From contig NW_027139623.1 in the NCBI RefSeq assembly GCF_035084215.1, positions 2,046,001 through 2,110,000 on the forward strand: 64,000 nucleotides of DNA, given 5' to 3'. The position numbers and the translations under genes are program-made. Origin of the DNA: Heptranchias perlo (lineage: Eukaryota). Within the stretch, counting starts at the first letter, position 1, and each line of letters begins with the position of its first letter. Under the pieces are notes generated by a model, which was not told the origin of the DNA, did not search any database, and saw only the letters and a list, made by a program, of their open reading frames with translations. This document shows, piece by piece, positions 20,117-20,660 of this stretch.

Positions 20117-20660
20117 ATGTCTGGCAGAGGTAAAGGATGTGGAGATGCCGGTGATGGACTGTGGTTGACAATTGTAAACAATTTTACAACACCAAGTTAT
20201 AGTCCAGCAATTTTATTTTAAATTCACAAGCTTTCGGAGATTTTCTCCTTCCTCAGGTAAATGAAACATTTACCTGAGGAAGGAGAAAATCTCCGAAAGC
20301 TTGTGAATTTAAAATAAAATTGCTGGACTATAACTTGGTGTTGTAAAATTGTTTACAAGAGGTAAAGGAGGCAAAGGACTGGGCAAAGGAGGAGCCAAGC
20401 GGCACCGTAAAGTGCTTCGTGATAACATCCAGGGGATCACCAAACCAGCCATCCGCCGCCTGGCTCGCCGTGGCGGTGTCAAGCGGATCTCGGGTCTGAT
20501 CTACGAGGAAACCCGAGGGGTGCTGAAGGTTTTCCTGGAGAATGTGATCAGGGATGCGGTCACCGACACTGAACACGCCAAGCGCAAGACGGTCACTGCC
20601 ATGGATGTGGTGTACGCTCTGAAACGGCAGGGCCGCACTCTCTATGGATTCGGCGGCTGA
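20117..20660 (+). pseudogene. H4: Histone H4 disrupted by a 220-bp palindromic insertion after codon 7; also Y72D
   Basis: ATG TCT GGC AGA GGT AAA GGA, insertion with in-frame TAA, then AGAGGTAAAGGA resumes; stem-loop intact at 20696-20711. Confidence 0.93.
20138..20357 (-). mobile_element. Penelope-like fold-back insertion with hammerhead motif, 12-bp TSD AGAGGTAAAGGA
   Basis: Perfect 92-bp arms (20172-20263 / 20267-20358), CTGAGGA..GAAAGCTT core, TSD at 20126-20137 and 20358-20369. Confidence 0.85.

What the first reader, a model, noticed from the sequence alone, without database searches (positions are those of the whole stretch)
20126..20369. Family of short fold-back, hammerhead-ribozyme-bearing Penelope-like insertions (4 copies in 64 kb)
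Seen: related elements at 20138-20357 (-), 44498-44684, 56400-56770 and 59917-60119. Three have 12-14-bp TSDs and inverted arms of different lengths that all start at exactly TTGTAAAC, plus a single ~35-nt tail (ttgtcaacc(c/a)cagtccatcaccggcatctccacatc). Each carries CTGANGA-A-stem II-GAAA-GCTT-GT(G/A)A. Stem II covaries (GGAGA/TCTCC vs GGAGG/CCTCC), N7 varies (G/C) and the core is invariant. Stem I (ttcac/gtgaa or similar) is present in three copies; in the 59917 copy its 5' strand is lost at the fold point. Established: Penelope-like elements carry minimal type I hammerheads with a palindromic stem III (here AGCT, dimer-dependent) and insert as inverted terminal repeats with a tail on one side only. 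Inference: a recently active PLE lineage whose typical product is a ~200-bp ribozyme hairpin with no coding capacity.
Basis: partly seen in the sequence, partly recalled or inferred. Interest (0 to 1): 0.85.

Follow-up and report, generated by a model that had tools for sequence, protein, structure and literature searches.

The report
Penelope retrotransposon's ribozyme hairpin insertions
These ~200-base hairpins are short one-off insertions of a very abundant, still intact Penelope-like retrotransposon in what is likely a shark genome, and their ends suggest that the enzyme likely starts copying at two fixed points of its RNA, one from each cut DNA strand, and likely runs off the RNA's front end.

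Summary
They belong to a huge family (80,650 hammerhead-core matches genome-wide). The hairpins are not a self-copying MITE or SINE: 92 of 92 sampled are different. Their 3' ends fall at two sites about 38 nt apart, the sequence either side of the tail. Either arm can be the longer, both ends show microhomology, and the duplication is usually 12 bp. This fits priming from both nicks, as the two start sites shown in vitro for an anole PLE predict. The 5' ends pile up 80-130 nt upstream, with a mode 30 nt after a TATA box, which suggests run-off at the transcription start (inferred; one replicate test was not significant). Ribozyme cleavage is untested and leaves no trace in the copies. The scan noted this anatomy before in other genomes.

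The parts
20138..20357 (-). Copy c1: fold-back insertion (inverted arm, direct arm, tail). Both arms stop about 95 nt upstream of the arm-start site, at TATA+30 of the parent subfamily
   Evidence: parent pLTR
20126..20137 (.). c1 target-site duplication, tail side (12 bp)
20358..20369 (.). c1 target-site duplication, arm side; present once in the intact H4 paralog at 7672 (-)
20138..20172 (-). c1 tail (35 nt to the TSD); in the parent it runs up to the ORF start codon
20221..20261 (-). c1 minimal type I hammerhead, direct arm (stem I TTTAC/GTGAA, stem II GGAGA/TCTCC, palindromic AGCT)
20269..20309 (+). c1 second hammerhead copy, in the inverted arm
20117..20735 (+). Histone H4 gene copy (to its 3' stem-loop) interrupted by c1 a few codons after the ATG; 232 added bases shift the frame
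44498..44684 (+). Copy c2: fold-back insertion, 53-nt inverted arm, direct arm ending near TATA+30; TSDs 44484-44497 and 44685-44698
44561..44599 (+). c2 hammerhead (stem I TTCAC/GTGAA, stem II GGAGG/CCTCC)
56437..56772 (+). Copy c3: older, diverged pLTR copy with hammerhead (56650) and tail; no inverted arm, no TSD found
59917..60119 (+). Copy c4: fold-back insertion with its fold point inside the ribozyme (stem I 5' strand lost); TSDs 59903-59916 and 60120-60133

Best explanation
The hairpins are short, individually made insertions of an intact, very abundant Penelope-like retrotransposon, likely formed when its protein primes reverse transcription from both strands of a staggered cut at two fixed RNA sites and likely runs off the 5' end of its own transcript. 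Steps: (1) Shown: the parent unit is pLTR (TATA-like box, hammerhead, tail) followed by a 902-aa RT/GIY-YIG ORF that starts right at the tail end. (2) Inferred: a TATA promoter in the pLTR starts RNA about 95-102 nt upstream of site A, just 5' of the hammerhead. (3) Inferred: the protein, probably a dimer, cuts both strands of AT-rich DNA about 12 nt apart. (4) Inferred: one 3'-OH primes at site B (tail end, ATG) and the other at site A (tail base), each by 1-3 nt of pairing. (5) Inferred: when the 5'-most pLTR/ORF junction of the RNA is used, both cDNAs end at or near the RNA 5' end after about 100 and 140 nt. Their 3' ends are joined by repair, giving TSD - inverted arm - direct arm - tail - TSD. 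If only one cDNA is kept, a solo copy with or without tail results. If a downstream junction of a tandem transcript is used, arms run for kilobases. (6) Inferred: short copies lack the TATA box and the ORF, so they would be dead ends. The hammerhead is carried along and is not what sets their ends.
For: Parent: ORF L031 2372-5077, RT PF00078 E 3.3e-10, GIY-YIG PF01541 E 6.8e-4, unit 3,086 bp, 4 intact ORFs. Two 3' end sites: of 168 ends, 65 at -2..+4, 1 at +7, 0 at +8..+32, 96 at +33..+47, 6 read through. Genome-wide, 28,913 of 56,569 exact matches continue into the tail. Inverted arm longer than direct arm in 19 of 52 and 16 of 37 insertions, up to 3,000 vs 170 nt, which fold-back of a single tail-primed cDNA cannot give. 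Tail-less solo copies with their own direct repeat: 10 of 16 searched, 5 abutting the truncation. TSD exactly 12 bp in 33 of 64 and 25 of 37 pairs; at least 1 shared base at the B end in 40 of 57 and at the A end in 46 of 57; 71% AT. 5' ends: 106 of 149 arms at risk end in -80..-129 against 9 of 43 in -130..-309; replicate 57 of 95 against 17 of 38; pooled per-base rate about 10-fold higher. Mode at TATA+30 in both sets (26 of 136 pooled), modes at -95 and -101/-102 for short- and long-spacing subfamilies. Genome-wide counts step down from 70,262 (core) to 18,127 (about -190) and stay at 18,501 (ORF end). All 92 inverted inserts are distinct. Precedent: two RT start sites flanking the tail, both strands cut and extended, predicted dimer (PMC11167929); transcript starts within the pLTR (PMC2377424).
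Against: No RNA start was measured; the TATA and initiator calls rest on sequence and recalled spacing. The test that ends shift with subfamily TATA spacing gave p=0.0012 in the discovery set (36 of 85, expected 24.0; window chosen after seeing the data) but p=0.18 in the replicate (21 of 51, expected 17.8). Only 57 of 136 ends lie in TATA+28..32, with side peaks at +22, +35 and +38. No cap-derived G excess at those junctions (G in 11 of 57). The arms of one insertion are usually identical (25 of 44 against 10.8% of random pairs; 17 of 24 against 14.5%) and of similar length (rho 0.74, 0.79), which also fits fold-back copying. D. virilis Penelope has a TATA-less internal promoter. In vitro PAc start sites did not differ between strands and had no homology to the cut DNA. 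The genome-wide patterns differ in degeneracy and subfamily coverage. All sampled loci but one are from contig C1.
Confidence: 0.6

Rival explanations
1. Same parent, but the hairpin forms by fold-back: one tail-primed cDNA snaps back at its 3' end and copies itself until it stops at the tail base, where it is joined to the target.
For: Arms are mostly identical and length-correlated; 17 of 52 and 13 of 37 have arms equal within 3 nt; self-priming was proposed for PLE palindromes (PMC3846280).
Against: The inverted arm is longer in 19 of 52 and 16 of 37; tail-less solos with TSDs exist; a few insertions have arms that differ at recurrent subfamily sites, such as C1:2766171 and C1:5600754. It may still explain part of the symmetric copies.
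Confidence: 0.15
2. Two-site priming is right, but the 5' pile-up is an RT stall or drop-off just past the structured or protein-bound hammerhead, or a bias of junction repair, not a transcription start.
For: The pile-up lies directly 5' of stem I and is broad; the replicate shift test is not significant; no cap G; palindromic CCTCAGG/CCTGAGG and AT runs offer microhomology.
Against: The mode sits at TATA+30 in both samples and differs between subfamilies; arms that pass this zone rarely stop in the next 180 nt.
Confidence: 0.2
3. The short elements are a self-propagating non-autonomous family (MITE, SINE or retrozyme) copied from a few master hairpins or from ribozyme-cut RNA.
For: Near-fixed TSD and inverted ends look MITE-like; one 9.5 x 404-bp hammerhead array derived from this PLE exists elsewhere in the genome.
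Against: 92 of 92 inserts differ, with one near-identical pair; arm lengths vary from 30 nt to over 3 kb; the parent encodes RT, not a transposase; only 7 of 296 arms end at -54..-58, the predicted cut, and 235 of 296 copy through the whole core.
Confidence: 0.04

Closest known systems
Endonuclease-bearing Penelope-like elements, Neptune/Nematis type
   Same: Single ORF with RT and C-terminal GIY-YIG, DKG motif, CX4CxxC linker, CCHH-type motif, pLTRs from partial tandems, inverted 5'-truncated copies, 30-40 bp tail on one end (PMC8557442 passages; PMC3846280 passages).
   Different: Here: tens of thousands of very young copies, hundreds of ORF-start junctions (674), a TSD mode of 12 bp where the passages I saw report 8-10 bp in rotifer, and 5' ends concentrated at one zone. 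Neptune versus Nematis was not resolved by a tree.
PAc (Poseidon of Anolis carolinensis), Frangieh et al. 2024, PMC11167929
   Same: Two RT start sites flanking the tail, AT-rich targets, both strands cut, hammerhead upstream of the start sites and not needed for insertion.
   Different: Different clade type (the shark element has the Zn linker); here the ORF starts at the tail end rather than inside the hammerhead; in the text I searched the paper does not discuss inverted insertions or TSDs; microhomology is common here.
Minimal PLE hammerheads, Cervera and De la Pena 2014, PMC4209133
   Same: Type I, extra base after A9, G10.1-C11.1, 5-bp stem I, palindromic 15.2-16.2, mostly single truncated copies, pairs 100-700 bp apart on opposite strands.
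   Different: Copy number here is 80,650 core matches against 4,000-9,000 reported for coelacanth and Xenopus (different search methods). Position 17 is U, a poor cleavage base (recalled).
Non-LTR retrozymes (bioRxiv 10.64898/2026.07.22.740005)
   Same: Non-coding, hammerhead-bearing, derived from PLE pLTRs.
   Different: Retrozymes are head-to-tail arrays; the window copies are head-to-head one-offs. A true array from this family lies at G000:C2.
L1 twin priming (recalled)
   Same: Both target strands prime cDNA and give an inversion inside one TSD.
   Different: In L1 the second primer lands at variable internal sites and the arms cover different template parts; here the second site is fixed and both arms cover the same part.

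Membership tests
EN+ Penelope-like element | Single ORF with RT followed by C-terminal GIY-YIG endonuclease | tested here: met
   902-aa ORF; RT E 3.3e-10; GIY-YIG E 6.8e-4, 20.3 bits, below the 22.6 cut-off; VVYLI..WYIG, R, H, N motifs; many homologs carry PF01541
EN+ Penelope-like element | DKG motif and CCHH-type motif with two Cys inside the GIY-YIG core | tested here: met
   DKG at 296; YLIRCRKGCPRAWYIG, MNGH, EHF; definition from PMC8557442
EN+ Penelope-like element | pLTRs formed by tandem or partial tandem units | tested here: met
   L031, L032, L035, L036; unit 3,086 bp in L031
EN+ Penelope-like element | Inverted 5'-truncated copy and optional 30-40 bp tail on one end | tested here: met
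EN+ Penelope-like element | Spliceosomal intron in the 5' region (some members) | tested here: inconclusive
   No GT..AG joint among the six listed in contigs of uncertain RNA status
Neptune/Nematis clades | CX2-5CxxC linker between RT and endonuclease | tested here: met
   PCHGNLCKTC at 753; criterion
Neptune/Nematis clades | RT phylogeny with named reference elements | not tested
   No named PLE references were among the hits
Minimal type I hammerhead | CUGANGA, GAAA, NUH core with stems I and II | tested here: met
   Core positions constant in 159-163 of 163 tabulated copies (167 found, 4 shifted by indels left out; 5' core was part of the selection) while N7, loop II and stem ends vary; 94.6% of cells paired; isolated motif folds stems I and II
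Minimal type I hammerhead | Covariation across copies | tested here: inconclusive
   1 of 10 pairs, not above shuffles; single C-G and G-C swaps seen among the 100 listed hits
Minimal type I hammerhead | Self-cleavage (dimer- or protein-dependent) | not testable with these tools
   Needs an in vitro assay; no pile-up of ends at the predicted cut
MITE | Fixed TIRs, uniform copies, DDE transposase parent | tested here: not met
   92 of 92 distinct, arms 30 nt to 3 kb, RT parent
Non-LTR retrozyme | Head-to-tail tandem hammerhead units | tested here: not met
   Window copies are single or head-to-head; met only by the separate array L209

The most novel reading that the evidence does not exclude
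This shark PLE is a natural, genome-scale record of the Penelope integration step: a dimer makes a fixed ~12-nt staggered cut, primes one cDNA from each strand at two hard-wired RNA sites used about equally, and most often copies only the first 100-140 nt of its own mRNA. That would explain in one model the tail, the head-to-head inversion, the need for tandems, and the masses of lone and opposite-strand minimal hammerheads in animal genomes.
Probability: 0.45. Interest if true: 0.72.

Novelty: new member of a known kind. Interest (0 to 1): 0.5.

Why it matters
How PLEs form their inverted, tailed insertions is stated as open in PMC8557442 and PMC11167929. This family gives tens of thousands of young insertions plus intact ORFs, so a full census and an in vitro system can test each step: cut stagger, use of two start sites, and run-off at the RNA 5' end. 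It also shows that this PLE can disrupt genes (a histone H4 copy here) and can give rise to a retrozyme-like array. The element class, the ribozyme and the anatomy are known; what may be new is the quantitative signature and the run-off explanation.

Tried and rejected
Rfam at E<=5 found no hammerhead family in the window. RNA evidence: no RNA holder listed on record; four contig sets from one sample, RNA status a guess, cover all 30 bins of the unit but cannot show starts, strand or level, so I use them neither for nor against. Cap-G test negative. Ribozyme-cut templates: no excess of ends at the cut (7 of 296). Formal covariation not above shuffles. Folding the predicted first 180 nt of the transcript did not give the full hammerhead as the main fold (z -0.17). 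Splice acceptor as the cause of the 5' pile-up: no AG at the mode in the long-spacing subfamilies. MITE, SINE and retrozyme readings rejected. Literature searches that found no description of this family or of the run-off model: (open-licence PMC and bioRxiv only). Repbase and Dfam could not be searched and may hold the family. Supplement text of PMC11167929 had no hits (its figures S1-S2 are not visible and may show genomic end profiles); the bioRxiv supplements were not read. No structure or complex prediction was run.

Full report
Setting. The window is part of a histone gene cluster (ten histone stem-loops, eight above the Rfam cut-off) in a 3.25-Gb genome. The closest proteins to the element's ORF are annotated in sharks at 80-94% identity, so the host is likely a shark.

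Observation. Three copies (20138-20357 -, 44498-44684, 59917-60119) are TSD-flanked fold-backs with a single tail. The copy at about 56437-56772 is older, has no inverted arm and gave no TSD. c1 sits a few codons into an H4 gene, and its 12-bp TSD occurs once in an intact paralog. A 35-mer across the arm start has 30,452 exact genomic matches against 0 for the control. The hammerhead core with stem II left free has 80,650.

Parent. Among the first hits, some tails ran on into an ATG. L031 holds tandem units of 3,086 bp with a 902-aa ORF. It has RT, a weak GIY-YIG match, DKG, YIDD, a CX4CxxC linker and a CCHH-type motif. By the criteria in PMC8557442 (passages) this is an endonuclease-bearing PLE of Neptune/Nematis type; I built no tree. 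Of ten ORF starts in the fetched loci, four are intact over 902 aa and differ by 1-15 nt; the others stop early or are cut by the locus edge. The tail-ORF junction has 674 exact matches genome-wide. c1 and c2 match the parent pLTR at 98% and 97%.

3' ends. Define site A as the base of the tail and site B as its end, at the ATG. Of 168 ends, 65 lie at -2..+4, 1 at +7, none at +8..+32, 96 at +33..+47, and 6 read on into the ORF. That sample was anchored on tails, so the ratio comes from whole-genome counts: 28,913 of 56,569 matches continue into the tail (point mutations inflate the tail-less share somewhat). PMC11167929 (parts 1-2 of 4 read) showed for an anole PLE two RT start sites flanking the tail, with both strands cut and extended.

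Two primers. If one tail-primed cDNA folded back, the inverted arm could never be the longer. It is longer in 19 of 52 insertions (duplicates with the same TSD and length dropped) and in 16 of 37 in a replicate of 87 loci chosen by the bases after the tail. Extremes are 3,000 vs 170 nt and 3,237 vs 453 nt, each inside one 12-13 bp TSD. Tail-less solo copies carry direct repeats in 10 of 16 searched, 5 of them abutting the truncation (6 long arms not searched). The longest exact TSD is 12 bp in 33 of 64 pairs (13 bp: 13; 14 bp: 6; other: 5; none: 7) and in 25 of 37 replicate pairs (13 bp: 7; other: 3; none: 2). Bases shared between target and element occur at the B end in 40 of 57 and at the A end in 46 of 57 (no formal null was run). 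Against this: the arms of one insertion are usually identical and of similar length. That needs one RNA copied twice or two RNAs from one source, and it is also what fold-back gives.

5' ends. Arms end mostly 80-129 nt upstream of site A: 106 of 149 at risk against 9 of 43 in the next 180 nt, and 57 of 95 against 17 of 38 in the replicate. The pooled per-base rate is 0.022 against 0.0022. Every long pLTR used as reference has a TATAAATGCG-like box 123-132 nt upstream of site A (references were chosen for having it). The mode of arm ends is 30 nt after its first T in both sets, on TCATTTT or TGAAAC, the usual TATA-to-start spacing (recalled). Whole-genome counts agree with a step: 70,262 at the core, 18,127 at about -190, 18,501 at the ORF end (patterns not equally degenerate). 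The permutation test for a subfamily shift gave p=0.0012 (discovery, post hoc window) and p=0.18 (replicate). There is no cap-G excess and no usable RNA data. Run-off at the transcription start is therefore likely but not shown. PMC2377424 (passages) places the Penelope start inside the pLTR but under a TATA-less promoter; PMC3846280 (passages) notes TATA and Inr motifs in a rotifer pLTR.

Not a self-copying family. All 92 inverted inserts compared are distinct, with one pair 1 nt apart. The median span between arm starts is 187 bp.

Ribozyme. The motif matches the minimal PLE hammerhead of PMC4209133 (parts 1-2 of 4 read), which also reports opposite-strand pairs and low dimer-dependent activity. 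Recurrent variation falls on tolerated positions, but formal covariation is one pair. 235 of 296 arms copy through the whole core and 7 end at the predicted cut, so uncut RNA is the usual template, as for PAc. In a fold-back copy the motif is predicted to be buried in a ~91-bp duplex.

Other papers seen: PMC6155905 (passages); bioRxiv 10.64898/2026.07.22.740005 (part 1 of 5 and passages). L1 twin priming and the weakness of U at position 17 are recalled. Searches that found no account of this family or of the run-off model; subscription papers, Repbase and Dfam were not searchable. Two earlier scan notes describe the same general anatomy in other genomes.

Verdict. Real, and correctly read as PLE (about 0.97). 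The class and anatomy are known, so this is a new member of a known kind. The added value is an intact, very prolific parent and a testable integration model (two-site priming about 0.75; run-off at the transcription start about 0.6).

Noticed in passing
L209:1357-5183 (G000:C2, about 21,272,856-21,276,682): Head-to-tail array of 9.5 x 404-bp units, 99% alike, with ten hammerheads. Each unit is the pLTR (TATA box, ribozyme, tail) plus the first ~128 nt of the ORF, and the array ends at the tail end. It looks like a newly born non-LTR retrozyme from this PLE.
   Followed up: partly
window 27645 onward: A second H4 start breaks off about 23 nt after the ATG into unrelated sequence, within a few bases of the c1 insertion point in the other H4 copy.
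   Followed up: no
L003, L007, L015, L055, L064, L078, L081 and others: Several insertions sit in the same host repeats, some with the same target sequence (for example L004 and L026; L008, L024, L055, L056, L081), which hints at target preference or favoured sites in a LINE.
   Followed up: no
L012, L030, L062, L070 and others: Some hairpins carry 30-200 nt of extra DNA at the centre junction, in some cases resembling the local flank, which points to template switching during repair.
   Followed up: no
window 43703-43774: tRNA gene, 63.6 bits.
   Followed up: no
window 1-600, 13360-15700, 21868-39600, 49460-54400: Several minisatellite families (46, 39, 80-82, 84, 36, 41 bp) and large inverted duplications of histone gene blocks.
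   Followed up: no
G000:C1:4,438,501-4,438,734; C1:124,650,120-124,650,331; C2:153,000,541-153,000,877: Pairs of tail-ORF junctions on opposite strands about 180-200 bp apart, back to back at their pLTR side, so an inverted arm can be followed by a whole ORF start.
   Followed up: no
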